A stretch of DNA of 64,000 nucleotides from Muribaculaceae bacterium (GCA_029061925.1 JAIDRE010000059.1:2193-66192); one strand, 5' to 3'; positions 24,245-34,237 are shown, counted from the stretch's first letter. The notes: generated from the sequence alone by a model not told the origin. Made by a program: numbers and translations.

Positions 24245-24323
24245 CATAAGTCAAATTAAAACTATCAACCAACCAAGCCTTATAATTAGACCTTATAATA
24301 TTTATGTTCTAAAGCATAAACTC

Positions 24324-24354
24324 TTTGAAACTTAAATAATATTTTATAATTTTG
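24324..24354 (+). promoter_or_regulatory. consensus Bacteroidota promoter of the island operon
   Basis: TTTG (24324-24327), exactly 19 nt, TAATTTTG (24347-24354). The predicted transcription start is about 24359-24362. Two 9-bp direct repeats CCTTATAAT lie upstream at 24278-24286 and 24291-24299. Confidence 0.6.
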
Positions 24355-24359
24355 CACTG

Positions 24360-24490
24360 CAAGTAACGACAATCTGAAAATGACCAGTAAGTAGAATAAA
24401 AGACATACGGCGAGAGCCGAAAACCCTTTAAAACTCCCATGTAGTCGTTACCGGCTTTGGTCAGCCTTCAGATGCTATATTGGGAGTTCT
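24360..24490 (+). promoter_or_regulatory. candidate structured 5' leader / cis-regulatory RNA upstream of the methyltransferase fusion
   Basis: Perfect complements: 24363-24370/24444-24451 (8 bp), 24372-24378/24467-24473 (7 bp), 24381-24386/24458-24463 (6 bp), 24432-24439/24481-24488 (8 bp). There is also a CGGC-GAGA-GCCG hairpin at 24408-24419. Confidence 0.4.
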
Positions 24491-24532
24491 CTGTATAAAA
24501 AACATATCAAAAATAATATTGTAATATCAATA

Positions 24533-27058
24533 ATGAATAAAGATATCCTTTCAGAATTAAAGGACACTCCGGAACAGACATTAGTTGTCGGTCCTTTGGT
24601 TGAATTACTTGTCAAAGGAGGTTGGCAATTAGGTCAAATTATATATGGGAAAAATGAATGGAAAGTACCCAGGACTCCTTCGGAGGCATCTAAACGAGAG
24701 AAAGGCTCTTCTTTCGATTATTTTCCTGTTGATATTGCTGTATTTGATAGTGTTGCTAATTGTGGTGATTATCGCCACCTATTATTCATCATTGAGTGTA
24801 AACAACCTAAGATTGATGTTGGTCTTCAACAACTTGAGACCTACCTTTCTTTAGAGCCTCATGCAAAACTTGGCATATGGGTGAATAACGCAGATGCAAG
24901 TGCAAATGCACTTTTCGTTTATAAAAATGAAAAGGGGCTCCAATTTCCTAAACATAAAAAAGTCAAAGACTTTCCAATTGTAGGTAGCCCTTTGACTCCA
25001 GCCACTGTTTCTCTTACGTTTAATGATCTCGTTATACCAACGAAGGATAGTCTTTACCGTACTTTTTCAGATTTGTTGGACAAGGTGGTTGCACAAGATG
25101 GTAATGTTACCCGTAGGGAAGAACAACTGGATCAACTTTGCAACCTTGTACTCTTAAAACTTGATAGTGACAAGCAAGGAAAGATTGATTCTGAGGCAAC
25201 TGTATATTTTAGGGCCTTTGCTACAGAAAGTGCAACAGCAGACTACATAAAATCAAAATTTAAAAACTTTATAGATGTATATCCAGATATTTTTGTTTCC
25301 AAGTCAGATCAAGAAATACGTTTTGATGATGCGACTATACATGATGTCGTAGAGTGTCTCTCTACTTTCAATCTAATTGATATCGGTGCAGATACTGTTT
25401 CTATTGCTTTTCAAGTTCTACGTAGCGCAGCACTAAAGCAACAAGAGGGTCAATATTTCACACCTAAACAAGTTATTCAAGCAGCCCTTCGTCTTATAGA
25501 AGTATCTCTTGATGACATTATCATGGATCCGGCATGCGGGACAGGTGGATTCCTAATTCAAGCTTTAATAGATATGAAAGAAAGGTATCCAAATCAAGAA
25601 AAGGAGATATCAAGATGGGCACAACTGCATATTTTTGGTATTGATAAAGATGCTATAGGTATAAAACTTACCAAGGCAATAATGCAGATTCTCAATGACG
25701 GTTCTGCTCATTGTGTAAGGGGAGATAGTGTTTTGACTCATACATGGAAAAATAAATATCCTCATTTACTATCAAATCAATTCAAGAATGGGAGATTCAC
25801 AAAAATTTTCACCAATCCTCCTTTTGGTGCTCCTTTAAAGATAAAATATGCTGATGCTAAAAAATCTTCATTGAGTATTGTGGAATATACGGAACAAGGT
25901 AAAGATATTGAATTGGGGCTACTAATGTTCAATAGGTGTGTAGATTTACTAAAAGAGGGTGGTAAATTATGCATTGTTCTTCCTGAAACATACTTTTTTT
26001 CGCCGTCATATAAGTATGTAAGAGAGTGGGCATTTGAAAGATTGAAACCAATTTGCGTTGCAAATGTTCCAATGGATGCATTTCAAGGATTCTGTAGGGC
26101 AAAAACAAATCTTTATATTTTTGAGAAGATATTTGAAGGTCAGTCTAACATTGACTTTGAAAATGATACTGTGGCTTTTATCAATCCAACTTCTTGTGGT
26201 ATTTATAAGAACGGTGCAGATAGATTTGTTGTAGATTCAAATGGAAATCGAACAAATGTAATAGATAATCAGTTGCTTGCTCAAGCCACAGAATATGCTA
26301 ACAAAGATATGAAACATGCTTTTAATATTCCATTGAAAGATGTGCTTAAATCTGGAGTGCTTGTCCCCCAATACTTTGACAAAACGTTACAATATCCATC
26401 TGAAAAATTGTATACATACTTAGGAACTCAGGGAATAAGTATCGGGGAACTTATTGACAAAGGCATTATTCAACTATTTAATGGACACGGAAGCCCTAGC
26501 AATGATCTGAGGAATGGTGAAGTCCCATATGTGAAAGTGTCAGATATTCGCAATTTACGAATTAATGTCAATCCAACTAATCTTATTCCACTTCCATTAG
26601 CGCAAAAGTTTTGGAAATCTGAGGATGGGAAAAGCAACCTTAAAGCATGGGATTTAATTTCTCCGAGTCGTGCGAGTAGTAATATTGGAGAGTTTGCTAT
26701 CCTTTTACCGGGCGAAGAATCTATTGTTCTAACTAAAGAAGTTTTCATTATACGAGTTAATCATAATTCGATTGGAATTACTCCTTTCTACCTTTTATGG
26801 GCTTTAAGCCTTAAAGAAACGCGAAAACAATGGGCTAGGGTTACGCTTATGCAAACTAACCGTGAAGATGTTGGTCAAAGATACCGCGAAATCACAATTC
26901 CTTATCCATTGTCTGCCAGCTGGGCTGATAAAGTATGTAAATCGTTTAGAGATTATTTTGAAGGTATTGCAAAAGCGAAGGCAAACTTTGTTGCAAGTAC
27001 ATCCACAGACGAATTCAACTATATTGCAAGTGTGAGTGCTTTTAATCAGAGTTTGTAA
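24533..27058 (+). CDS. single-chain PD-(D/E)xK-like domain + gamma-class N6-adenine DNA methyltransferase + one TRD (type IIG-like R-M-S fusion)
   Basis: N-terminal FPVD(67)IAVFD...LFIIE(88)CK(90) resembles the HsdR N-terminal nuclease fold. MTase motifs: QYFTPK (aa 307-312), DPACGTGGF (aa 332-340, nt 25526-25552) and NPPF (aa 428-431, nt 25814-25825). The C-terminal roughly 210 aa start like an HsdS TRD (IGELIDKGIIQLFNGHGSPS...GEVPYVKVSDI). Confidence 0.8.
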   Translation: MNKDILSELKDTPEQTLVVGPLVELLVKGGWQLGQIIYGKNEWKVPRTPSEASKREKGSSFDYFPVDIAVFDSVANCGDYRHLLFIIECKQPKIDVGLQQLETYLSLEPHAKLGIWVNNADASANALFVYKNEKGLQFPKHKKVKDFPIVGSPLTPATVSLTFNDLVIPTKDSLYRTFSDLLDKVVAQDGNVTRREEQLDQLCNLVLLKLDSDKQGKIDSEATVYFRAFATESATADYIKSKFKNFIDVYPDIFVSKSDQEIRFDDATIHDVVECLSTFNLIDIGADTVSIAFQVLRSAALKQQEGQYFTPKQVIQAALRLIEVSLDDIIMDPACGTGGFLIQALIDMKERYPNQEKEISRWAQLHIFGIDKDAIGIKLTKAIMQILNDGSAHCVRGDSVLTHTWKNKYPHLLSNQFKNGRFTKIFTNPPFGAPLKIKYADAKKSSLSIVEYTEQGKDIELGLLMFNRCVDLLKEGGKLCIVLPETYFFSPSYKYVREWAFERLKPICVANVPMDAFQGFCRAKTNLYIFEKIFEGQSNIDFENDTVAFINPTSCGIYKNGADRFVVDSNGNRTNVIDNQLLAQATEYANKDMKHAFNIPLKDVLKSGVLVPQYFDKTLQYPSEKLYTYLGTQGISIGELIDKGIIQLFNGHGSPSNDLRNGEVPYVKVSDIRNLRINVNPTNLIPLPLAQKFWKSEDGKSNLKAWDLISPSRASSNIGEFAILLPGEESIVLTKEVFIIRVNHNSIGITPFYLLWALSLKETRKQWARVTLMQTNREDVGQRYREITIPYPLSASWADKVCKSFRDYFEGIAKAKANFVASTSTDEFNYIASVSAFNQSL

Positions 27059-27138
27059 TCAATTTTATAATGAAATCTGACTAAAAACAATGGAGGCCAT
27101 GCCATTTAGTAAATAATTAAGCAGTGTAATCATAATTT

Positions 27139-29442
27139 ATGAAAGCAATATATCTAGATTTACACATACATACCTCAGAAGATGCAAATAAGCCTAATGC
27201 ATCCTATGATATAGCAGAATTGGTTCGTAAGATCAAGGAGTATAATGACAACTCTGATTTTATGATTTCCCTTACTGATCATAATATGATTAATAAGGAT
27301 GCTTACCTCAAGGGATTGGCATTAGGAATTAAAATGATTTTAGGGGTTGAATTACATATCAAACATGAAGATGATGTAAAGGCTTATCATTGTCATATGT
27401 TCATCAATAAAGAAATTACAGAAGATACAATTGATGACATAAACAAGATACTAGATAAACTATACCCAGAAAAATTACCGAATAGAACAGAGTCGTCTAT
27501 CCCTGATATTCAGCAGATAATTAATAGTTTTGATGATTATGATTTTATGCTTTTGCCTCATGGCTCTCAACGACATGGAGCGTTCAATTATTCAATTGGC
27601 AAGGATAAACGTTTAGACAATGCAATAAATAGATCCATATACTATAATCAATTTGATGGATTTACTGCTCGAAGTAATGACGGTTTAGAACAAACAAATG
27701 AGTATTTTAAAAAGCTCGGTATTGCCGAGTTCATTAATTTACTTACTTGTTCTGATAACTATTCTCCCAGTAGTTATCCATCCACAAAAAGTAAAGAAGC
27801 AAATGAATTTGTTCCAACATGGATGTTTGCAGAACCAACATTTGATGGCCTTCGCCTGTCCTTGTCTGAATCATCTAGATTAGTGGTACAAAAAGATAAA
27901 CCTGTAGTCAGAACTGATCATATTGGACATATAGTGCTCAAGAATGAACATATTGACATTGATGTAACATTATCGGATGGTTTAAATGTGGTTATTGGAG
28001 GATCCTCTTCTGGGAAGACTCTATTTGTCGATTCAATTTTTAAGGCCATTAATCATTCGTTTGAAGGTTCAAAATATGTCGATAGATATGGGGTAGATCG
28101 AATTGCAGTTGAGAATCCTTCAAATATGCTTCCGTATTACATCTCTCAAAATTTCATTGCAGAGAATATTAGTGATAACAATGAGAAGTCTATTGACGAA
28201 ATAGAAATACTTCATAATATTTTCCCATCAGACAAAGAAATTAATCAGCAGATTACAACGGCATTAAATTCTCTGAATACCATTGTTGCAAATATGTTAA
28301 ATCATGTAGCAACAATTGAATCTTGTATAACGTCACTCAATGCCCTTCCACACCCAGGAATGATGGTGGTTAATACTGTAGTAAAAAGGAATATCTATAA
28401 TTCGTTTATACCTAAAGATGAAGAGACAAATAGTATTAAATACTCTCAACCTACATATGAGGAGCATTTAAAGAACCTTCAAGAGATTAAGATATTCCTT
28501 GAGAATAATCCTCTGACGCAAGATCTAATTAGAGAGTTTCAATCTATAGAAAACGAATTAAAATTTGCTTATCAAGCAAGTAATGTTTCTAATGAAATAT
28601 TACACCACATATTGGATAGAAAGAAGAATGTTGATGTCCATTTGCGTGAAACACAGGGCATTGATCAAGAACGATTACAGAATAAGGAACGTTTAATGAC
28701 GTTAATTGCCAAATATGTATCAGCAATAAAAGGTTTTTATGCATGTAGAAAGCAATTGTCTGAAACTAAATATTCCTTTTCTACGAATATTGTTGAGTCA
28801 ATGGGACATAAATTATCTATTCATAATAATTTTAAGTTTGATGAAAATATCCTAATCACCACTCTAAACCAATATCTTAAATATTCGTTTAAGAGAATGA
28901 GTGATGTTATCCCGGAGAATTTATTCAAAAGGTATTTTAAAGATCGTCCCCGGGTTGAGTCGTACGATGAATTAGGTAGAAAGATTCAATCGTACTTGTC
29001 GGATGCCAATACAAAATCATATCAAATCACGACAAGCAATGGTGTCGACTTTAATTCACTGAGTCCGGGATGGAAAACGGCGATCTTATTAGATTTAATA
29101 TTAGGATATGAGGATGATAATGCCCCAATAATTATTGATCAACCAGAGGATAATCTTGCAGTAAAATATATTAACTCTGATCTCGTTGCCACTATAAAAA
29201 GAGTAAAAACCAGAAAGCAGGTAATTCTAGTTTCCCATAACGCGACCATTCCTATGATGGCGGATGCTCAGACAATTATTTTGTGTGAGAACGACGGTTC
29301 CAAAATCACTATTCGGTCTGCATCTTTAGAAGGTTTAATCGGAGACAAAAAGGTTCTTGACTATATCGCGGATCAAACTGATGGAGGAAAATCATCAATA
29401 AAAAAACGTGTGAAAAAATATAACTTTAGACATTTTAATTAG
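27139..29442 (+). CDS. PHP-domain phosphoesterase fused to a Rad50/SbcC/RecF-like ABC ATPase with a long helical insert
   Basis: PHP motifs: DLHIHTSED (aa 7-15), LTDHN (aa 45-49), GVELH (aa 69-73), LLPHG (aa 138-142). ATPase motifs: Walker A GGSSSGKT (aa 287-294, nt 27997-28020), signature-like LSPGWKT (aa 641-647), Walker B PIIIDQPED (aa 663-671, nt 29125-29151), H-loop VSHN (aa 698-701). About 340 aa separate Walker A from the signature. The architecture recalls the single-gene Ppl system (PplA) and possibly the name TrlF-like AAA ATPase. That is from memory and needs an HMM check. Confidence 0.75.
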   Translation: MKAIYLDLHIHTSEDANKPNASYDIAELVRKIKEYNDNSDFMISLTDHNMINKDAYLKGLALGIKMILGVELHIKHEDDVKAYHCHMFINKEITEDTIDDINKILDKLYPEKLPNRTESSIPDIQQIINSFDDYDFMLLPHGSQRHGAFNYSIGKDKRLDNAINRSIYYNQFDGFTARSNDGLEQTNEYFKKLGIAEFINLLTCSDNYSPSSYPSTKSKEANEFVPTWMFAEPTFDGLRLSLSESSRLVVQKDKPVVRTDHIGHIVLKNEHIDIDVTLSDGLNVVIGGSSSGKTLFVDSIFKAINHSFEGSKYVDRYGVDRIAVENPSNMLPYYISQNFIAENISDNNEKSIDEIEILHNIFPSDKEINQQITTALNSLNTIVANMLNHVATIESCITSLNALPHPGMMVVNTVVKRNIYNSFIPKDEETNSIKYSQPTYEEHLKNLQEIKIFLENNPLTQDLIREFQSIENELKFAYQASNVSNEILHHILDRKKNVDVHLRETQGIDQERLQNKERLMTLIAKYVSAIKGFYACRKQLSETKYSFSTNIVESMGHKLSIHNNFKFDENILITTLNQYLKYSFKRMSDVIPENLFKRYFKDRPRVESYDELGRKIQSYLSDANTKSYQITTSNGVDFNSLSPGWKTAILLDLILGYEDDNAPIIIDQPEDNLAVKYINSDLVATIKRVKTRKQVILVSHNATIPMMADAQTIILCENDGSKITIRSASLEGLIGDKKVLDYIADQTDGGKSSIKKRVKKYNFRHFN

Positions 29443-29451
29443 AGCAAGAAG

Positions 29452-29697
29452 ATGACATTAAAATTTGATAAGACTCCAAATGGAGACATCTCGATATGTA
29501 TCTATGATGGTACAAATATTCTACCATTCTCATATGTTGAGTTAATCAAGAATATAATGGCAAACGATATTATTGAAACTGATTACTCATCATCAATAAC
29601 AGAAGATGAACACAAGCAAATTGATGAACTAATTACCGAAATAGAATGCGTGGTGCATCCTAAAAGTGAATCAGATGCCACACCCTCTCTGTTTTGA
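29452..29697 (+). CDS. hypothetical small acidic protein (81 aa)
   Basis: ATG lies 9 nt after the stop of the PHP-ATPase gene. By my count it has 16 Asp/Glu against 5 Lys and no Arg. I recognise no family. Confidence 0.5.
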   Translation: MTLKFDKTPNGDISICIYDGTNILPFSYVELIKNIMANDIIETDYSSSITEDEHKQIDELITEIECVVHPKSESDATPSLF

Positions 29698-29779
29698 CGT
29701 AACTGCCTAGGCGAAAGGGGTATTGACAGTCGCTTCATCGTAATAAATTGTAATATATATCTGTCCAATTTATAGAAAT

Positions 29780-30628
29780 ATGAAACTTATATATAAAAGT
29801 CGAGGATTTCCTATTACTATAGAGAAATATATCCCAAATTCTTTTGCATACGATCAATGGGTTATATCGGACGAATATTCTAAAGTAGCTGTTGGTAATG
29901 AATATAGGATTGTCGTAACTTCTTTGGCTGATATACGAGACCATAATGACCTAACTCTTATAGCAGTCCAAACTTCCGCATTTATAGAAAAGCTAACCAT
30001 GCTTCTAAAGTATGCGGTAGGCATGTCACTAAATTCTCCACATAAGCAAATAACATATCGGTGTACACGTGGTATTGATATTAGAGAATTACCTAATGGG
30101 TGGAATGCCAACATAGACGAAATAGACTCTTTCTTAATGGAAACTCGTTCGTCACACATTAGTATAACTGTATTTCCCAATAACGCCAATATGCCTACTT
30201 CTGCGTTGCCAGAATTACAAATAGCACTTAACAACTACGATGCACTTGATGAGGAAATAAAGGATCTGATAGCTCTTCATAATAGTGCTGTTGAATCAGA
30301 TGAGCGCTCATGTTTCCTTATTATGAGTAAAGTTCTTGATATGATAAACTTCTTATATCCTCCATCTAAATCTCATCCCCATAATGATAAAAGGATCTCA
30401 CAATATTTTCCGGAACTTCAGCCTTTTTTCATTGACACAACGATAAGGAAATTATTTGAAATATCAAATCAAAGAAAAGAGACGAGACACTACGAAAATC
30501 AGAAGACCCGTACTCCCCACAAATCCATTAAAGGACACGAAGCAGAACAATTTTTCCAACGTGTTGATGTGCTTGCATTATCGGTTGTCCGGAACAGGTT
30601 AGGATTGCCACCTCTAAATATAATATAA
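29780..30628 (+). CDS. hypothetical protein (282 aa); helical C-terminal half with an Rx4H motif (possible HEPN-like)
   Basis: Longest ORF in this interval and on the same strand as its neighbours. RKETRH (aa 232-237, nt 30473-30490) is flanked by predicted helices. I recognise no family. Confidence 0.5.
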   Translation: MKLIYKSRGFPITIEKYIPNSFAYDQWVISDEYSKVAVGNEYRIVVTSLADIRDHNDLTLIAVQTSAFIEKLTMLLKYAVGMSLNSPHKQITYRCTRGIDIRELPNGWNANIDEIDSFLMETRSSHISITVFPNNANMPTSALPELQIALNNYDALDEEIKDLIALHNSAVESDERSCFLIMSKVLDMINFLYPPSKSHPHNDKRISQYFPELQPFFIDTTIRKLFEISNQRKETRHYENQKTRTPHKSIKGHEAEQFFQRVDVLALSVVRNRLGLPPLNII

Positions 30629-30666
30629 TTAAATTTTAGGTCAACTTATAAACATAGAAAAAGATT

Positions 30667-31008
30667 ATGAATTCCAATGATATACGCCCTTTGATAAATC
30701 AACTTTCCAAATCAACCTCAAAGGAAGAACAAATAATCATTAAATCCTTCCTCTCTGGCTCGTATAAAGCAGAGTATGATTATGTAATGGCAATTTTAGA
30801 TAAGTCTATTTGTGTCTCTAAAATTTCAAGTGATGCAATAGACAAGGCTGTTGAATGTACTAAATTATTCAACGAGGCTATGGCATTATCTCAGGATCTC
30901 AATGAGGAACAACGAAAAGAAGCGGAATTACGCCGTGAAGGAATTGCGCAAGAATTCAAAGAGCATTGTTATGCGACAATACGCTCTTATGGTATAAAAA
31001 TTGAATAA
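30667..31008 (+). CDS. hypothetical helical protein (113 aa)
   Basis: ATG lies 38 nt after the previous stop and the composition is helix-rich. It is the last gene before the convergent minus-strand gene. I recognise no family. Confidence 0.45.
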   Translation: MNSNDIRPLINQLSKSTSKEEQIIIKSFLSGSYKAEYDYVMAILDKSICVSKISSDAIDKAVECTKLFNEAMALSQDLNEEQRKEAELRREGIAQEFKEHCYATIRSYGIKIE

Positions 31009-31067: not shown

Positions 31068-32528
31068 TTAATCTTTTACAACAACCCAATGCCCATTTTT
31101 ATCACTCCCTTCGCGTGCTATCATACCTAATTGGCGGAGAGCCATAGTTGCTCGTTTTGCGGTTTTGTCTGTTATAGATAATTGTTCTGCTATTTCTCGA
31201 TGAGTTATATTGTGATTCTCTTTAATTCGAGCAAGAACTTGTCGCTGTGTCTCGGTTAGATTTACAGGGACATTTACAGGGACATTTACAGGGACATTTA
31301 CAGGGACATTTTTAGCATCATCACTATTTTCTGTTTTTCTTTGGATAGCTGATTTCAGAGGGAAAGAGACTATGGCTTTTGTCCGGTCACTATCAACTGA
31401 CGGGCGTGTCCCTGTAAGTGACTCCCAGCTTGCAAGTTTATTCATTCCGTAACCGGCATTTTCAGCGATACCGACAAATCTGAACAGTTTCGCAATAGTC
31501 GGATTGCGGAGCTTGGAGTAAACTTTTCCAATAATGTCTTTTACAGGGAGCGGGAAGCATCCTCCGTTCATAAACTCTATATGATCGGTATAAACGCGGA
31601 TACAGGAGCGCAACGAATCGAAGTGGTCGCCGTGCATAACCATATTTGCAAGTGCCTCTCTGAGAACATTATATTGGCTCTCATCTGTTGTCGCAAATCC
31701 ATCTTCTTTAATATGGATTGGTGCATCAACAAGTGTACGAAATCGTCGCAAAATAATTTGGACTGAATCCCATATATTGTCTTGTTCTGGTATTCGATAT
31801 GTGTATCTAACTTCTGCCTGTTCAATAGTTGGACCGGGGATTTCGATATAGTCAACACAGAATGTCGGCACATAGCGTAAGACATAGGGAGCTTTGCCGA
31901 ACATCAGAAGTCCGGCATAGGTTAGCAAACCATTTCGCGTGATGTTGACCTGCTCGCAGAATTCAGCATCATCCACCTCGCGGAGATTGACAAGATTTTG
32001 CGTCTGACTAAGTGCGAATCTATAACTTTTTAATGTATTGAGATTAAGCATATCAATACTCGTATCGGGAATAGTCTCCTCGGTTTTCTTTCCAAAGGAT
32101 TGATCACGAAACATGGCGCGTATCTCACCTTCAGTTGCCCTTTGGTCTCCGCTACCCATTCTGATGAATGTGTTGATAGGGCTACCATAATATACCGGTT
32201 TTAAATCAACCTCCGGTACATAAAAAGCAAGAAGTTTCTTGCCGTCAATGTCGTATTGCTTAGAAGTTACTGCCAATCTTTGGTTAAACTTCTCTGATCG
32301 CAGAGTGCCAAGAAAATCCTGTTCAAGTTTCTCAATGTTATCCACCCCTTGTATCTCAAATGTCTTGCCGGTCTGCTTCACTCCGAGTACAATCCATCCG
32401 CCGGAGGTATTCGAGAATGCGCTGACGCTTTCCCAGATATTCTTCGGTAACTCAGATTTTGCAGCCTTGACTTCAAAATCTTCCCATTCTATGTCGTGCA
32501 GCTTTGCTACAAGTTCATTCTTGGTCAT
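31068..32528 (-). CDS. COG2865-type protein: AlbA_2 (Schlafen-like) N-domain + HATPase_c_4-like domain + C-terminal wHTH
   Basis: N-terminal E(W)EDFEVKAA...SAFSNTSGGWIVLGV pattern, central ...REALANMVMHGDH..., and C-terminal wHTH (LTETQRQVLARIKENHNITHREIAEQLSITDKTAKRATMALRQLG). Confidence 0.75.
   Translation of the reverse strand: MTKNELVAKLHDIEWEDFEVKAAKSELPKNIWESVSAFSNTSGGWIVLGVKQTGKTFEIQGVDNIEKLEQDFLGTLRSEKFNQRLAVTSKQYDIDGKKLLAFYVPEVDLKPVYYGSPINTFIRMGSGDQRATEGEIRAMFRDQSFGKKTEETIPDTSIDMLNLNTLKSYRFALSQTQNLVNLREVDDAEFCEQVNITRNGLLTYAGLLMFGKAPYVLRYVPTFCVDYIEIPGPTIEQAEVRYTYRIPEQDNIWDSVQIILRRFRTLVDAPIHIKEDGFATTDESQYNVLREALANMVMHGDHFDSLRSCIRVYTDHIEFMNGGCFPLPVKDIIGKVYSKLRNPTIAKLFRFVGIAENAGYGMNKLASWESLTGTRPSVDSDRTKAIVSFPLKSAIQRKTENSDDAKNVPVNVPVNVPVNVPVNLTETQRQVLARIKENHNITHREIAEQLSITDKTAKRATMALRQLGMIAREGSDKNGHWVVVKD
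31261..31308. repeat. perfect 12-bp tandem repeat x4 (TTACAGGGACAT), in frame
   Basis: Read directly from the sequence. It encodes (NVPV)x4, seen in the protein as VPVNVPVNVPVNVPVN, between the HATPase-like domain and the wHTH of the gene at 31068-32528. Confidence 0.95.
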
Positions 32529-32628: not shown

Positions 32629-33639
32629 TTAATTATCTCTAAACTTATTTTCTATCTTTGCTACAACCCCGAGTATATCTGCAAACGAGGGTACATTATC
32701 TTCGTATATCATATTCATGACCATTGTATCATAATCGTTTTCCCATTCTGCTATGACACTTTCAGGAGGAGTGAGGGTAATACGTTTGCGAACGTCCGGT
32801 GTGTAGTTAACATCGCGTATTGAAGTAAATACTTCCCGATGATGACGAATGGTTTCCCACAGTTCATCATCTTGAATAGCTTTGTTAGCGATTCCAGCCT
32901 CATACATCTTGTATATATCATACAAGTGTCGTGATTTACGATTGGCATTCCGGCAACCATCAGTTGTGAATAACTCATGAAGCAGGAATACCTTTTCAAG
33001 AAATGTCTTTTCTGCAACAGCCACAACAATCTGAACTTCGTTGTCATTTGATGTAAGATGTGGAAACATCCCAGATACAAAAGATTCAACCTTTGTTTTG
33101 GCTGTCGGTTCGAAAAGAGACCGGGCTCCAACTTCCAGCAGAACCTCATCACGGAGATATGGATTAGCTCCAGAGGGAAATACTGACTTATAGATAATAT
33201 GAATCTGCCGAGGTTCTGGATATGTCGCATCTCCTTCACCATCGGGGTCAGCTTTAATCGTCACAAATCCACTTAATCCTGCTTGTTCTACCGCCATTTT
33301 CAGATCATTGGCGAAAGTATCACGAACAAATACAGACGACACTTTACGCAATTTCTTTAACTCCTTCTTGGTTACATTACCATCAATTCCGAACATACTG
33401 CGATCTATGGCAATGTCAATATCTTCAGAGAACCGTAGTATGACTCCCCAAACTTTGCTCAGTGATGTACCACCTTTGAACACCATCTTTTCAGCGTATG
33501 GTAGAGAGAAAAGAATATTGAGTATTTCCGTTACCCAAAAATCTTTCTCAATTGCAGCCACCGGAAGTTTTATCTTTGCGGCCGTCTGCTCAAAAACAGT
33601 TCTTCTTTGAGTCTCGGTAAGTGTCAGAAATTTATTCAT
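32629..33639 (-). CDS. abiEii: AbiEii/AbiGii-family nucleotidyltransferase toxin (DUF1814)
   Basis: FKGGTSLSKVWGVILRFSEDIDIAIDR is the NTase motif (GG[ST]...R.S.DID) of this family. Confidence 0.88.
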   Translation of the reverse strand: MNKFLTLTETQRRTVFEQTAAKIKLPVAAIEKDFWVTEILNILFSLPYAEKMVFKGGTSLSKVWGVILRFSEDIDIAIDRSMFGIDGNVTKKELKKLRKVSSVFVRDTFANDLKMAVEQAGLSGFVTIKADPDGEGDATYPEPRQIHIIYKSVFPSGANPYLRDEVLLEVGARSLFEPTAKTKVESFVSGMFPHLTSNDNEVQIVVAVAEKTFLEKVFLLHELFTTDGCRNANRKSRHLYDIYKMYEAGIANKAIQDDELWETIRHHREVFTSIRDVNYTPDVRKRITLTPPESVIAEWENDYDTMVMNMIYEDNVPSFADILGVVAKIENKFRDN

Positions 33640-34237
33640 AGGAATCGAGTATAATCTTACGGATCCATGCCGGAATCAAGGCAAAATCCTTTTTTATTGT
33701 TTCAAACGGTATGGTTTTAACTATATTGCGGATATGTGCAAGTTGGCTATCGTTAATATTATTTTCTCCGATTTCGCGCAGAGCAAAAGTGAGAAGCATG
33801 GCGATTTCATTCCGGAAGGCCAGATTTTTTTTAGCAGTATGCTTGAACTGTATTCCCCTACTACCCTCTAACTTTACTTTACGCGGAGAACCATCTGTCA
33901 AATACACCACATTCATCGGCAACTGGGTTGATAATCCAAGCTTATTAAGCGCATACGCTCCTGTAGGAACAATCGTAGCTTTGTCACGCCTTGCAATAGC
34001 GGCTGCAATGTCCTCAATTGTGGGATAAAGAATACCCAATCCCAAAACCTTATCAATTTTTGGATAACAATAGACACCTTGCGCCACCCGAAGCAATTGT
34101 TTGGACGCAACAAGCCGTCCGAAAGCCTTATGAACTGCATTAAGCGTGCCATATGAAGCGAAATCCTGCGGAAATACAATTGTACCCCTTCCGCGTTTAG
34201 CCATATTTGTTAATATCTTATTTTCAATAGATTGCAT
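33632..34237 (-). CDS. abiEi: AbiEi-family antitoxin (DUF6088-like wHTH)
   Basis: 201 aa directly upstream of abiEii with an 8-nt overlap. The N-terminal wHTH-like segment is GTIVFPQDFASYGTLNAVHKAFGRLVASKQLLRVAQGVYCYPK. Confidence 0.8.
   Translation of the reverse strand: MQSIENKILTNMAKRGRGTIVFPQDFASYGTLNAVHKAFGRLVASKQLLRVAQGVYCYPKIDKVLGLGILYPTIEDIAAAIARRDKATIVPTGAYALNKLGLSTQLPMNVVYLTDGSPRKVKLEGSRGIQFKHTAKKNLAFRNEIAMLLTFALREIGENNINDSQLAHIRNIVKTIPFETIKKDFALIPAWIRKIILDSYE

What the first reader, a model, noticed from the sequence alone, without database searches (positions are those of the whole stretch)
27139..29442. Single polypeptide joining a PHP phosphoesterase to a Rad50/SbcC-like ABC ATPase
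Seen in the sequence:
- The N-terminal 245 aa carry the ordered PHP metal-ligand motifs: HxH in DLHIHT, DH in LTDHN, E-x-H in GVELH, and H in LLPHG.
- From aa 262 a RecF/SbcC-type ATPase head starts. It has Walker A GGSSSGKT, signature-like LSPGWKT, Walker B IIIDQPED and H-loop VSHN.
- About 340 largely helical residues separate the two halves of the head, like an SMC/Rad50 coiled-coil insert.

Established knowledge: PHP domains act as metal-dependent nucleases or phosphoesterases, for example the 3'-5' exonuclease of PolX/PolC-type enzymes. SbcC/Rad50 ATPases normally partner with a separate Mre11/SbcD nuclease.

Inference: this protein could be a self-contained, ATP-gated DNA-end or DNA-structure nuclease. 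From memory, a PHP+ATPase single-gene defence system (Ppl, PplA) has been reported. If this is an orthologue, its embedding in a methylase operon is the new element.
Basis: partly seen in the sequence, partly recalled or inferred. Interest (0 to 1): 0.7.

Follow-up and report, generated by a model that had tools for sequence, protein, structure and literature searches.

The report
Ppl-like PHP nuclease–ATPase with small partner
This gene encodes a metal-dependent PHP nuclease-type domain fused to a Rad50/SMC-like nucleotide-binding head, a distant uncharacterised relative of the anti-phage protein Ppl, and its constant partner across more than ten bacterial phyla is a tiny, very acidic protein encoded just downstream, not the methylase next door.

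Summary
ORF 27139-29442 encodes a 767-aa protein with an N-terminal PHP fold (Foldseek: top 25 PDB hits are all PHP domains) and a C-terminal SMC/Rad50/RecN/RecF/AriA-like ABC head split by a helical insert of about 190 aa.

It is not a Ppl orthologue. It scores 93 bits against a cut-off of 1000, and it also falls below the NCBIfam cut-offs for TrlF and Spaf_1101. It belongs to a tight, unnamed family of about 766 aa, found in at least 589 species genomes across more than 10 phyla.

- The same methylase is adjacent in only 1 of 85 related loci.
- 70 of 81 non-redundant loci have no methylase or type I R-M gene within 8 kb.
- The methylase carries its own PD-ExK nuclease motif, so it looks like a self-contained type IIG/IIB-like R-M enzyme.

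What is conserved is a small ORF of about 81 aa (29452-29697; pI about 4.3) abutting the stop codon in 84 of 85 loci.

Two further details stand out. The Walker B is DQPE, with an invariant Gln where Rad50 has the catalytic Glu; Ppl shares this. The last PHP His is Tyr in this family.

Best reading: a two-gene, horizontally mobile defence module that works like Ppl, as a nucleotide-gated PHP nuclease, with the acidic protein as a regulatory subunit. This is a new variant of a known kind and of moderate interest.

The parts
27139..29442 (+). Gene for the 767-aa PHP-ABC ATPase fusion protein (large subunit of the cassette)
   Evidence: ORF confirmed. Full-length homologues of about 766 aa occur in at least 589 species genomes. 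The best NCBIfam hits are TrlF, Spaf_1101 and Ppl, all below cut-off.
27139..27903 (+). PHP phosphoesterase domain (aa 1-255). Proposed metal ligands: H9, H11, H48, E71, H84/H86, H141, D206. Tyr208 replaces the usual last His.
   Evidence: Foldseek on model m3258754aa7ea returns only PHP domains in its top 25 PDB hits, best E 2e-6. Ligand conservation is shown. Pfam PHP is sub-threshold, matching 20 of 40 members.
27922..28173 (+). N-terminal half of the ABC head (aa 262-345), with Walker A GGSSSGKT (287-294) and Q-loop Q337
   Evidence: Aligns to the Rad50 N-terminal lobe. G287, G292, K293 and Q337 are invariant across the superfamily.
28204..28764 (+). Helical (coiled-coil-like) insert, aa 356-542. 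Long helices at 366-402, 437-455, 464-506 and 508-542. No zinc hook.
   Evidence: DSSP on AlphaFold2 model m9e78e14a1438. Foldseek matches to SMC, RecN, Rad50 and AriA heads that carry coiled-coil stubs. No invariant Cys in this stretch.
28771..29439 (+). C-terminal half of the ABC head (aa 545-767): signature LSPGWKT (641-647), Walker B IIIDQPED (664-671, Gln668 at the catalytic-Glu position), H-loop VSHN (698-701), and a conserved tail TDGGKSSIKKRVKKYN
   Evidence: This is the part that matches the Ppl and TrlF models best (aa 602-759 in PADLOC Ppl).
29452..29697 (+). Gene for the conserved small acidic partner (81 aa), starting 9 nt after the stop of the large gene. It ends in ...SDATPSLF.
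   Evidence: A homologous ORF lies immediately downstream in 84 of 85 related loci, with HMM E 1e-12 to 1e-31. The gap is -20 to +11 nt in 74 of 80 loci; median pI is 4.3 and median net charge -11. It matches nothing in Pfam, NCBIfam, PADLOC or PHROGs, and no fusions were found.
24533..27058 (+). Neighbouring 841-aa N6-adenine methyltransferase with an N-terminal PD-ExK motif. It is probably an independent type IIG/IIB-like R-M enzyme and is not a conserved part of the cassette.
   Evidence: Pfam N6_Mtase 1.1e-23 and a weak HSDR_N_2 hit at aa 66-123. Motifs PVD67...E88-C-K90 and NPPF. The best solved relative is RM.BsaXI at 9.6e-16. MAD2 scores 168 bits against a cut-off of 720. It is adjacent to the cassette only in L008.
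24302..31008 (.). Low-GC acquired block (0.32-0.36 GC, against 0.48-0.52 in mfd upstream). It carries the methylase, the cassette and two unannotated genes.
   Evidence: Composition profile. L008 shares window 24302-30338 at 94.7% identity, but its left flank is different and lacks mfd.

Best explanation
The ORF and the 81-aa ORF that follows it form a two-gene, horizontally mobile defence cassette. It sits in a low-GC defence island, next to a stand-alone R-M enzyme, a Schlafen/AlbA_2 protein and an AbiE toxin-antitoxin pair.

The large protein belongs to the same superfamily as the anti-phage protein Ppl and the unstudied TrlF and Spaf_1101 families.

Shown here:
- The domains and their order.
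- The conserved catalytic and nucleotide-binding residues.
- The constant small partner.
- The variable, defence-rich neighbourhood.

Inferred mechanism:
1. The ABC head binds nucleotide and dimerises as Rad50/SMC heads do. An invariant Gln occupies the usual catalytic-Glu position, so the head may work more as a nucleotide sensor or switch than as a motor.
2. Nucleotide state and a DNA feature of the invader, such as ends or ssDNA, gate the PHP domain.
3. The PHP domain then degrades nucleic acid by metal-dependent hydrolysis. This follows what is reported for Ppl: a 3'-5' ssDNA exonuclease inhibited by bound NTPs and activated by NTP depletion plus 3'-OH ends.
4. The small acidic protein is a stoichiometric regulatory subunit. 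It is most likely an inhibitor or sensor that masks a DNA- or partner-binding surface until infection.

The upstream methylase is a neighbour, not a component.
For: Domains and residues:
- PHP fold and ABC head fold.
- Invariant PHP ligands and Walker A, Q-loop, signature, Walker B and H-loop residues in 40 family members and across Ppl, TrlF and the sister families.

Homology:
- The best family-level hits are TrlF (2.7e-59), Spaf_1101 (2.5e-28) and Ppl (1e-26).
- PADLOC Ppl scores 1e-21.

Ppl function comes from the literature: PMC12904381, PMC11482910, and Xu et al., Mol Cell 2026, as cited in PMC13434339.

The two-gene unit:
- The small ORF is present in 84 of 85 loci.
- Its start lies within -20 to +11 nt of the upstream stop in 74 of 80 loci.
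- DNA homology to L006 covers only window 27090-29610.

Mobility and defence context:
- At least 589 species in more than 10 phyla carry it at 43-62% identity.
- The block has low GC.
- Upstream neighbours in 71 loci include AbiLi (6), AriA-like ATPases (6), type I REases (4), reverse transcriptases and HD-CE.
- The window itself carries AbiEii plus DUF6088 and a Schlafen/AlbA_2 gene.

Methylase independence.
Against: - No member of this family has been tested, so the defence function rests on distant homology (17% identity to Ppl) and on gene neighbourhood.
- Tyr208 replaces a canonical metal-ligand His. The third metal site, and with it activity or substrate, may differ from Ppl.
- PHP domains also act on RNA (RNase AM) and on nucleotides (Cv1693), and these match the model about as well as the polymerase PHP exonucleases do.
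- The role of the small protein is pure inference. No complex prediction could be run.
- The inter-domain geometry of the model is uncertain (pTM 0.46).
- In this window the methylase and the cassette are co-oriented, 80 nt apart, with no predicted terminator between them, and they travelled together in L008. Co-expression here is therefore possible.
Confidence: 0.55

Rival explanations
1. The PHP-ATPase is the restriction arm of a methylation-dependent system, R-M-like or MADS-like. The upstream 841-aa methylase marks self DNA and the PHP-ATPase attacks unmarked DNA.
For: - The two genes are on the same strand, 80 nt apart, with no predicted terminator between them.
- The methylase and cassette are co-inherited as one 6-kb block in L008.
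- There are weak hits to MADS MAD2 (168 bits) and mad3 (1.6e-6).
- 11 of 81 family loci are linked to R-M genes on the same strand. In L025 the cassette sits between hsdS and hsdR.
- In sister-family locus L088 the cassette sits between hsdS and hsdM.
Against: - 70 of 81 loci have no methylase or hsd gene within 8 kb.
- The linked R-M systems are of different types: type I, a single-chain type and MmeI-like.
- The methylase has its own PD-ExK nuclease motif, and its closest solved relative is the bifunctional RM.BsaXI.
- MAD2 and mad3 score far below cut-off, and no other MADS component was hit among the neighbours.
- Homology to L006 ends at the cassette borders.
Confidence: 0.1
2. The pair is primarily a toxin-antitoxin or abortive-infection module. 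The PHP-ATPase is a toxic nuclease, and the small acidic protein is its labile antitoxin, acting as a DNA mimic or active-site plug. Loss or titration of the antitoxin during infection would free the nuclease to kill the cell.
For: - The two genes are tightly coupled, with overlapping or abutting reading frames.
- The partner is small and very acidic: median pI 4.3, net charge -11.
- The cassette moves as a self-contained unit.
- Its neighbours are often Abi or TA-type genes.
Against: - The gene order, large gene first and small gene second, and the absence of any DNA-binding or HTH domain in the small protein are atypical for classic type II TA pairs.
- Ppl, TrlF and Spaf_1101 relatives appear to manage without such a partner.
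- There are no experimental data.
- This reading overlaps with the best explanation rather than excluding it.
Confidence: 0.15
3. The PHP domain does not cut DNA. It acts on RNA or on nucleotides, for example as a 5'-3' exoribonuclease like RNase AM, as a nucleoside bisphosphate phosphatase like Cv1693, or as a degrader of a signalling nucleotide. The ABC head would be the sensor.
For: - Foldseek places RNase AM (7ug9, 9etk; E 3-5e-5), BAD_1165 (E 7e-6) and Cv1693 (E 1.4e-4) in the same range as the Pol III PHP domains.
- The His-to-Tyr change at the third metal site marks this family off from Ppl and TrlF.
Against: - The attached head is of the SMC/Rad50/RecN/RecF type, whose members bind DNA.
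- The only characterised relative, Ppl, is reported to be a ssDNA exonuclease.
- The ligands of the first two metal sites are intact.
Confidence: 0.12
4. It is a housekeeping DNA-repair enzyme, a fused analogue of SbcCD/Mre11-Rad50 that processes hairpins or breaks, and is not an immune gene.
For: It combines a Rad50-like head with a phosphoesterase nuclease in one chain. In this window it lies next to mfd.
Against: - Its distribution is patchy across more than 10 phyla at 43-62% identity, which indicates horizontal transfer.
- It sits in a low-GC island.
- Its flanks are variable and defence-rich or mobile, with integrases, Mob_Pre and transposases.
- L008 carries the same block without mfd.
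- The helical insert is short and has no zinc hook.
Confidence: 0.04

Closest known systems
Ppl (PplA; NCBIfam NF042955, PADLOC PDLC02208), a single-gene anti-phage protein of E. coli and relatives
   Same: - Same domain order: an N-terminal PHP domain, then an ABC-type NTPase split by a helical insert.
- Shared invariant residues: D7, H9, H11, E71, D206, Walker A GxxxxGK, Q-loop Q, signature S-x-G, Walker B D-Q-P-E, H-loop H.
- Both occur in defence and R-M neighbourhoods. The A. pittii ppl gene lies next to an hsdS gene.
- Ppl's reported mechanism, an NTP-inhibited 3'-5' ssDNA exonuclease, is the template for the mechanism proposed here.
   Different: - Only 17% identity.
- 767 aa against 893 aa.
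- It scores 93 bits against a cut-off of 1000, and 74.8 against 845.7 bits on the PADLOC model.
- Ppl works as a single gene, whereas this family always carries a small acidic partner.
- Ppl keeps the D-x-H His, whereas this family has Tyr.
TrlF family AAA-like ATPase (NCBIfam NF045780) and Spaf_1101 family (NF045781). Both are named but, as far as I could find, unstudied PHP-ATPase families.
   Same: TrlF is the best-scoring named model (2.7e-59, 201.8 bits). It has the same PHP plus DQPE-head architecture. It lies on conjugative or mobilisable plasmids and in islands.
   Different: - The window protein is below both curated cut-offs (201.8 vs 350; 99 vs 475).
- True TrlF proteins are 860-1024 aa and score about 520 bits.
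- The two TrlF plasmid loci examined have no abutting small ORF.
- TrlF lacks the D-H of motif II.
- A literature search for TrlF found nothing relevant.
Unnamed sister families of about 780-860 aa (for example P0176 in L088/L089 and P0199 in L090)
   Same: - They align over the full length at 24-25% identity.
- They have the same motifs.
- Each is followed by an overlapping or abutting ORF of about 100 aa. In L088 that ORF has an acidic tail ending in ILF.
- P0176 is embedded in a type I R-M operon.
   Different: - They score at most 192 bits against the family profile, while true members score at least 770.
- They keep the canonical D-N-H motif.
- Their small partners are not detectably homologous to this family's partner.
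SbcCD / Mre11-Rad50
   Same: An ABC head of the Rad50/SMC class, split by a helical insert, teamed with a metal-dependent phosphoesterase nuclease.
   Different: - The nuclease is a fused PHP domain, not a separate calcineurin-fold Mre11/SbcD.
- The insert is about 190 aa rather than several hundred, and has no CxxC zinc hook.
- Gln replaces the Walker-B catalytic Glu.
- The gene is mobile, not core.
PARIS (AriA/AriB), Gabija (GajA), Septu (PtuA) and OLD-type defence ABC ATPases
   Same: The head fold matches AriA (8v46, 8ux9; E 1.5e-6 to 8e-5). There are weak HMM hits to AriA, GajA and LmuB. The logic is the same: an ABC ATPase controlling a nuclease.
   Different: Those systems use Toprim or HNH nucleases, as a separate protein or a C-terminal domain. 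Here the nuclease is an N-terminal PHP domain. No sequence-level membership was found.
MADS (methylation-associated defence system)
   Same: The neighbouring methylase's best NCBIfam hit is MAD2, and the ATPase half weakly hits mad3.
   Different: Both hits are far below cut-off (168 vs 720 bits; E 1.6e-6). None of the other MADS components was detected among the flanking genes scanned. The methylase is not conserved with the cassette.

Membership tests
PHP (polymerase and histidinol phosphatase) superfamily | Distorted (beta/alpha)7 barrel fold | tested here: met
   The model of aa 1-258 returns only PHP domains in its top 25 Foldseek PDB hits (best E 2e-6, probability 1.0, TM about 0.5).
PHP (polymerase and histidinol phosphatase) superfamily | Ordered metal-ligand motifs: HxH, (D)H, E, H, H, DxH | tested here: inconclusive
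   H9, H11, H48, E71, H84/H86, H141 and D206 are invariant. The final His is Tyr208 in this family but His in relatives. So 8 of 9 canonical ligands are kept and the third metal site is altered.
PHP (polymerase and histidinol phosphatase) superfamily | Pfam PF02811 at or above the gathering score | tested here: not met
   It scores 21.1 bits against 26.4. 20 of 40 family members hit at E<0.01, and none was shown to pass the threshold. A family profile searched against PDB sequences found no PHP protein.
ABC ATPase of the SMC/Rad50/RecN/RecF class | Split head with Walker A, Q-loop, signature, Walker B and H-loop in order, and a helical insert between the lobes | tested here: met
   Motifs at 287-294, Q337, 641-647, 664-671 and H700 are invariant. 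Foldseek matches SMC, condensin, RecN, Rad50, RecF and AriA heads.
ABC ATPase of the SMC/Rad50/RecN/RecF class | Catalytic Glu directly after the Walker B Asp | tested here: not met
   The motif is D667-Q668-P-E670. Gln668 is invariant in the family and in Ppl and TrlF, and it aligns to the Glu of Rad50 LILDEPT.
Rad50/SbcC proper | Very long antiparallel coiled coil with a CxxC zinc hook, and a separate Mre11/SbcD partner | tested here: not met
   The insert is about 190 aa and has no conserved Cys. No Mre11/SbcD-type gene is adjacent.
Ppl (NF042955 / PDLC02208) | Full-length match at or above the curated cut-off | tested here: not met
   It scores 93.2 bits against 1000, matching aa 627-759 only. 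On PADLOC it scores 74.8 bits, against 845.7 for A. pittii Ppl.
Ppl (NF042955 / PDLC02208) | Single-gene system | tested here: not met
   A conserved small ORF abuts the gene in 84 of 85 loci.
Ppl (NF042955 / PDLC02208) | Anti-phage activity; NTP-inhibited 3'-5' ssDNA exonuclease | not testable with these tools
   These activities are known only from the literature on E. coli Ppl.
TrlF family (NF045780) | Score at or above the curated cut-off of 350 bits | tested here: not met
   It scores 201.8 bits. Genuine members score about 520 bits.
Spaf_1101 family (NF045781) | Score at or above the curated cut-off of 475 bits | tested here: not met
   It scores 99 bits.
MADS | MAD2 methyltransferase and mad3 ATPase above threshold, with the remaining mad genes present | tested here: not met
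   MAD2 scores 168 bits against 720. mad3 has E 1.6e-6 and only a partial match. No other mad model hit the nine genes scanned.
PADLOC candidate PDC-M49 | Full-length match to PDC-M49A | tested here: not met
   There are only partial matches, at E 1e-7 to 1e-6 over 70-140 aa. The sister families are equally weak.

The most novel reading that the evidence does not exclude
The cassette could be a distinct two-component immune sensor, not just a Ppl copy.

In this reading the small acidic protein is a decoy or sensor. In lineages from at least seven phyla its tail ends in an SSB-tip-like [D/E]-x-[L/I]-[P/L]-F. The tail would plug a DNA- or SSB-tail-binding site on the PHP-ATPase. Phage ssDNA/SSB complexes, or acidic phage anti-restriction DNA mimics, would displace it.

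The repeated insertion of this and sister cassettes beside or inside R-M operons would then reflect a guard role. The cassette would fire when the neighbouring restriction enzyme is neutralised, as PrrC does in the EcoprrI locus. The naturally EQ-like head would hold an ATP-locked off state.
Probability: 0.12. Interest if true: 0.7.

Novelty: new variant of a known kind. Interest (0 to 1): 0.45.

Why it matters
PHP-ATPase fusions are an established class of anti-phage effector, and only Ppl has been studied. This work marks out a separate and very widespread clade, in at least 589 species including common gut Bacteroidales. Current defence-finder models do not call it, and NCBI, JGI and UniRef label the members that carry a name as hypothetical protein or with generic terms.

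The clade differs from Ppl in three testable ways:
- It has an obligate small acidic partner.
- Tyr replaces a metal-ligand His.
- It is shorter.

If the cassette is confirmed as a defence system, three things follow. A two-gene system would be added to the annotation of gut and marine Bacteroidota. It would give a natural experiment on how a partner protein regulates a Ppl-type nuclease. And, since no member of the whole superfamily has a solved structure in the PDB copy searched, it would be a compact target for structural work.

The analysis also corrects the tempting reading that the adjacent methylase is part of the system.

Tried and rejected
1. Sequence searches of PDB found little.
   - The whole protein, the family profile and an N-terminal-domain profile found only marginal Rad50 hits and no PHP protein. 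The PHP assignment therefore needed a structure model plus Foldseek.
   - A search of PDB with a true Ppl sequence found no solved Ppl.
2. The idea that the 282-aa and 113-aa genes downstream (29780-31008) are conserved third and fourth components was rejected. They have no similarity to the like-sized genes in L004 and appear only in L008.
3. Searches for a conserved upstream or downstream third gene across 71-72 loci found none.
4. The small partners of sister families L088 and L090 were tested against the HMM of this family's partner, with no hit. Their relationship is positional only.
5. A profile search for the small protein in 5.8 billion proteins gave only 22 hits, all 73-102 aa. None had a Pfam domain, and no fusion to a larger protein was seen.
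6. Plasmid and phage collections hold no full-length member of this family, only distant Ppl or TrlF-type relatives.
7. Literature searches for TrlF and for the primary MADS paper gave nothing usable. The primary Ppl paper (Xu et al., Mol Cell 2026) is not held.
8. The sigma-70 promoter scan is uninformative. It found 31 sites against 31.2 expected, and the host is a Bacteroidales with a different promoter type.
It was redone with cropped database proteins.


Full report
**1. The observation**

Window 27139-29442 (+) is an uninterrupted 767-codon ORF with an ATG start.

On single-sequence Pfam evidence the domains are only hinted at. PHP scores 21.1 bits against a gathering score of 26.4, AAA_21 scores 25.4 against 27, and SMC_N scores 22.7 against 40. 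Conservation and structure settle the matter.

- Conservation. In an alignment of 40 homologues (48-87% identity), the PHP ligand candidates D7, H9, H11, D47, H48, E71, H73, H84, H86, H141 and D206 are invariant. So are the ATPase residues G287, G292, K293 (Walker A), Q337 (Q-loop), S642 and G644 (signature), D667, Q668, E670 (Walker B) and H700 (H-loop).
- ATPase structure. An AlphaFold2 model of the whole protein (mean pLDDT 82) matches SMC, condensin, RecN, Rad50, RecF and AriA heads at Foldseek E 6e-8 to 1e-5.
- PHP structure. A separate model of aa 1-258 (pLDDT 73.6, pTM 0.77) returns PHP domains as all of its top 25 PDB hits. They include Taq Pol III alpha, BAD_1165, RNase AM, Cv1693 and PolC, with a best E of 2e-6.

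Three details need correcting:

- The helical insert is about 190 residues (aa 356-542), not 340, and carries no conserved Cys. It is therefore a short RecN/RecF/AriA-like stalk rather than a Rad50 coiled coil with a zinc hook.
- In "IIIDQPED", an invariant Gln668 occupies the position of the catalytic Glu of Rad50 (LILDEPT).
- The last His of the PHP D-x-H motif is Tyr208.

**2. What family it belongs to**

NCBIfam's three best models are all PHP-ATPase families, and all score below their curated cut-offs:

| Model | Bits | Cut-off |
|---|---|---|
| TrlF | 201.8 | 350 |
| Spaf_1101 | 99 | 475 |
| Ppl | 93.2 | 1000 |

PADLOC's Ppl model matches only the last 150 residues, at 74.8 bits. A genuine Ppl from an Acinetobacter plasmid scores 845.7 bits over its full length.

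An exhaustive profile search of 1.84 billion cluster representatives shows a sharp break. Full-length family members score 770-1180 bits. The next full-length proteins, which are sister families of 780-860 aa, score at most 192 bits. The superfamily as a whole has 6332 clusters at E<1e-3. The sister proteins are likewise below the TrlF cut-off, whereas true TrlF proteins score about 520 bits.

A nine-sequence alignment spans the family, two sisters, two TrlF proteins and one Ppl. Invariant throughout are D7, H9, H11, E71 and D206, together with the complete set of head motifs, including D-Q-P-E. The protein is therefore a true but distant homologue of Ppl, at 17% identity. It belongs to a separate, unnamed family.

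That family is remarkably uniform and widespread. Members are about 766 aa long. The best 80 are 43-99% identical. They come from Bacteroidota, Bacillota, Campylobacterota, Actinomycetota, Planctomycetota, Desulfobacterota, Pseudomonadota, Fusobacteriota, Chloroflexota, Patescibacteria and others. Locus L008, from a Bacteroides sp. MAG, is 99% identical to the window protein.

**3. The real conserved partner**

Gene maps of the first homologues showed no methylase. Each instead had a 70-87-aa ORF starting at or just after the stop codon. I tested this systematically.

- An HMM of that ORF finds a homologue immediately downstream in 84 of 85 loci, at E 1e-12 to 1e-31. The exception, L039, has a disrupted large gene.
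- In 74 of 80 non-redundant loci, the start lies -20 to +11 nt from the upstream stop.
- In the window it is ORF 29452-29697 (81 aa), 9 nt after the stop.

The proteins are strongly acidic, with a median pI of 4.3 and a median net charge of -11. They share an N-terminal MKLxF...FSY..MIK core, an EE..I..M..I helix and a variable acidic tail. They match nothing in Pfam, NCBIfam, PADLOC or PHROGs. A profile search found only small stand-alone homologues and no fusions.

DNA comparison reinforces the unit. The 87%-identical locus L006 shares only window 27090-29610 with the window, which is just the two genes.

No third gene recurs upstream or downstream. The window's 282-aa and 113-aa genes are unrelated to genes of similar size elsewhere.

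Two sister-family loci also have an abutting ORF of about 100 aa. Those ORFs are not detectably homologous to this family's partner. The two TrlF plasmid loci and the Ppl locus examined have no abutting small ORF.

**4. The methylase**

The 841-aa upstream gene (24533-27058) is a gamma-class N6-adenine methyltransferase (N6_Mtase 1.1e-23, NPPF motif). Its N-terminus carries a PD-ExK pattern, P65-V-D67 ... E88-C-K90, under a weak HSDR_N_2 hit. Its closest solved relative is the bifunctional RM.BsaXI. It thus looks like a self-contained type IIG/IIB-like R-M enzyme. This is an inference from motifs.

Its MAD2 score is 168 bits against a cut-off of 720. Among 85 related loci, this methylase is adjacent only in L008. 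L008 shares one 6-kb block with the window (24302-30338, 94.7% identity) but has a different left flank without mfd.

A jackhmmer census for HsdM, HsdS, HsdR and this methylase gave the following:

- 11 of 81 non-redundant loci have any such gene within 8 kb, always on the same strand.
- In L010, L011 and L014 the order is hsdM, hsdS, hsdR, then the cassette after a 20-nt gap.
- In L025 the cassette lies between hsdS and hsdR.
- L079 has a single-chain methylase upstream.
- 70 of 81 loci have none.

Sister-family protein P0176 is likewise wedged between hsdS and rhuM-hsdM. So the methylase is not a component. Recurrent, facultative lodging next to or inside R-M operons is nevertheless real and worth noting.

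**5. Context in the window**

GC falls from 0.48-0.52 in mfd to 0.32-0.36 across 24.3-31 kb, and returns to about 0.47 after 35 kb. The island holds:

- the R-M-like enzyme;
- the cassette;
- two unannotated genes;
- a Schlafen/AlbA_2-HATPase_c_4-HTH gene (31068-32528, minus strand);
- an AbiEii/DUF6088 pair (32629-34237, minus strand).

Across other loci, the immediate upstream genes include AbiLi (6), AriA-like ATPases (6), type I REases (4), HATPase_c_3, reverse transcriptases, HD-CE and integrases. This is a defence-island and mobile-element setting.

**6. How it most likely works**

Shown:

- a PHP fold with intact ligands for the first two metal sites;
- a complete nucleotide-binding head of the DNA-binding SMC/Rad50/RecF class;
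- an obligate, co-translated acidic partner;
- horizontal mobility and defence-rich neighbourhoods.

From the literature: Ppl protects E. coli against phage (PMC11482910). It is described as a 3'-5' ssDNA exonuclease. NTPs bound to both the PHP and NTPase domains inhibit it, and that inhibition is relieved by phage-induced NTP depletion. It also needs 3'-OH ends (PMC12904381; Xu et al., Mol Cell 2026, cited).

Inferred: this family works on the same principle. The invariant Gln at the catalytic-Glu position is shared with Ppl. It fits a head that mainly senses or holds nucleotide rather than one that turns it over quickly. The small acidic protein would be a regulatory subunit, and an inhibitor or sensor masking a basic surface is the simplest reading.

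The Tyr208 substitution means the third metal site, and hence the exact chemistry or substrate, may differ from Ppl. RNA or nucleotide substrates are not excluded, because RNase AM and Cv1693 match the model about as well as the polymerase PHP exonucleases do.

**7. Rivals**

- An R-M-coupled or MADS-like system is disfavoured by the census and by the methylase's own nuclease motif.
- A toxin-antitoxin or abortive-infection reading overlaps with the best model.
- A non-DNA substrate remains possible.
- A housekeeping repair role is contradicted by the distribution, the composition and the flanks.

**8. Novelty and verdict**

The general idea, a PHP-ATPase single-chain defence nuclease, is already known as Ppl. 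The window protein is not a Ppl, TrlF or Spaf_1101 member by any curated threshold. Its family has a defining extra component that Ppl lacks, and current defence databases do not model it. No member of the superfamily was found in the PDB copy searched.

I rate it a new variant of a known kind with moderate interest (0.45). The more speculative readings are the SSB-tail-like partner acting as a decoy, and an R-M guard role. The evidence does not exclude them, but it does not support them beyond the sequence patterns noted.

Noticed in passing
window 29452-29697; related loci L004, L017, L020, L021, L037, L040, L058, L065, L074, L079; sister locus L088: The small partner often ends in an acidic run followed by [L/I]-[P/L]-F, for example DDLPF, EEIPF, EDLPF and ENLPF (PSLF in the window). 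This resembles the DDDIPF tip of bacterial SSB. 16 of 80 partners end in an aromatic residue, and these come from several phyla. The non-homologous partner of a sister family also ends in EDEILF.
   Followed up: partly
window 29140-29151 (codons 668-671 of the large gene); alignment A7: The Walker B motif is D-Q-P-E in the whole Ppl/TrlF/Spaf_1101-type superfamily. An invariant Gln sits where Rad50/SMC heads have the catalytic Glu, a natural equivalent of the laboratory 'EQ' trapping mutation.
   Followed up: partly
L088/L089 4001-6737; L025 8001-10551; L010/L011/L014 8001-10555: PHP-ATPase plus small-ORF cassettes, of this family and of a sister family, are repeatedly inserted beside or inside type I R-M operons. 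Examples are between hsdS and hsdR, and between hsdS and rhuM-hsdM. This recalls the 'restriction-linked' genes such as prrC and rloC.
   Followed up: partly
window 24533-27058: The 841-aa methyltransferase carries an N-terminal PD-ExK pattern (PVD67 ... E88-C-K90) and a C-terminal region of about 290 aa. Its best solved relative is RM.BsaXI. It is probably a single-chain type IIG/IIB-like restriction-modification enzyme rather than an orphan methylase.
   Followed up: partly
window 29780-30628 and 30667-31008: Two co-oriented genes (282 aa and 113 aa) lie in the same low-GC block. They match nothing in Pfam, NCBIfam, PADLOC or PHROGs. The first is shared with L008 at 93.5% identity. They could be another uncharacterised defence pair.
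   Followed up: partly
window 31068-32528 (-), 32629-33639 (-), 33632-34237 (-): The island also holds a Schlafen/AlbA_2 + HATPase_c_4 + wHTH protein and an AbiEii nucleotidyltransferase toxin with a DUF6088 partner (an AbiE-type pair). Schlafen/AlbA_2 genes also lie downstream of the cassette in L006, L018, L037 and L040.
   Followed up: no
L039 8001-9206: This is the only related locus without a detectable small ORF. Its large gene is interrupted by an early stop, so it is probably a decaying copy.
   Followed up: no
L091 (A. pittii plasmid pApiHCG62c) 1-5263: A bona fide ppl gene lies next to a type I hsdS gene on a mobilisable plasmid. R-M proximity is therefore also seen for Ppl itself.
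   Followed up: no
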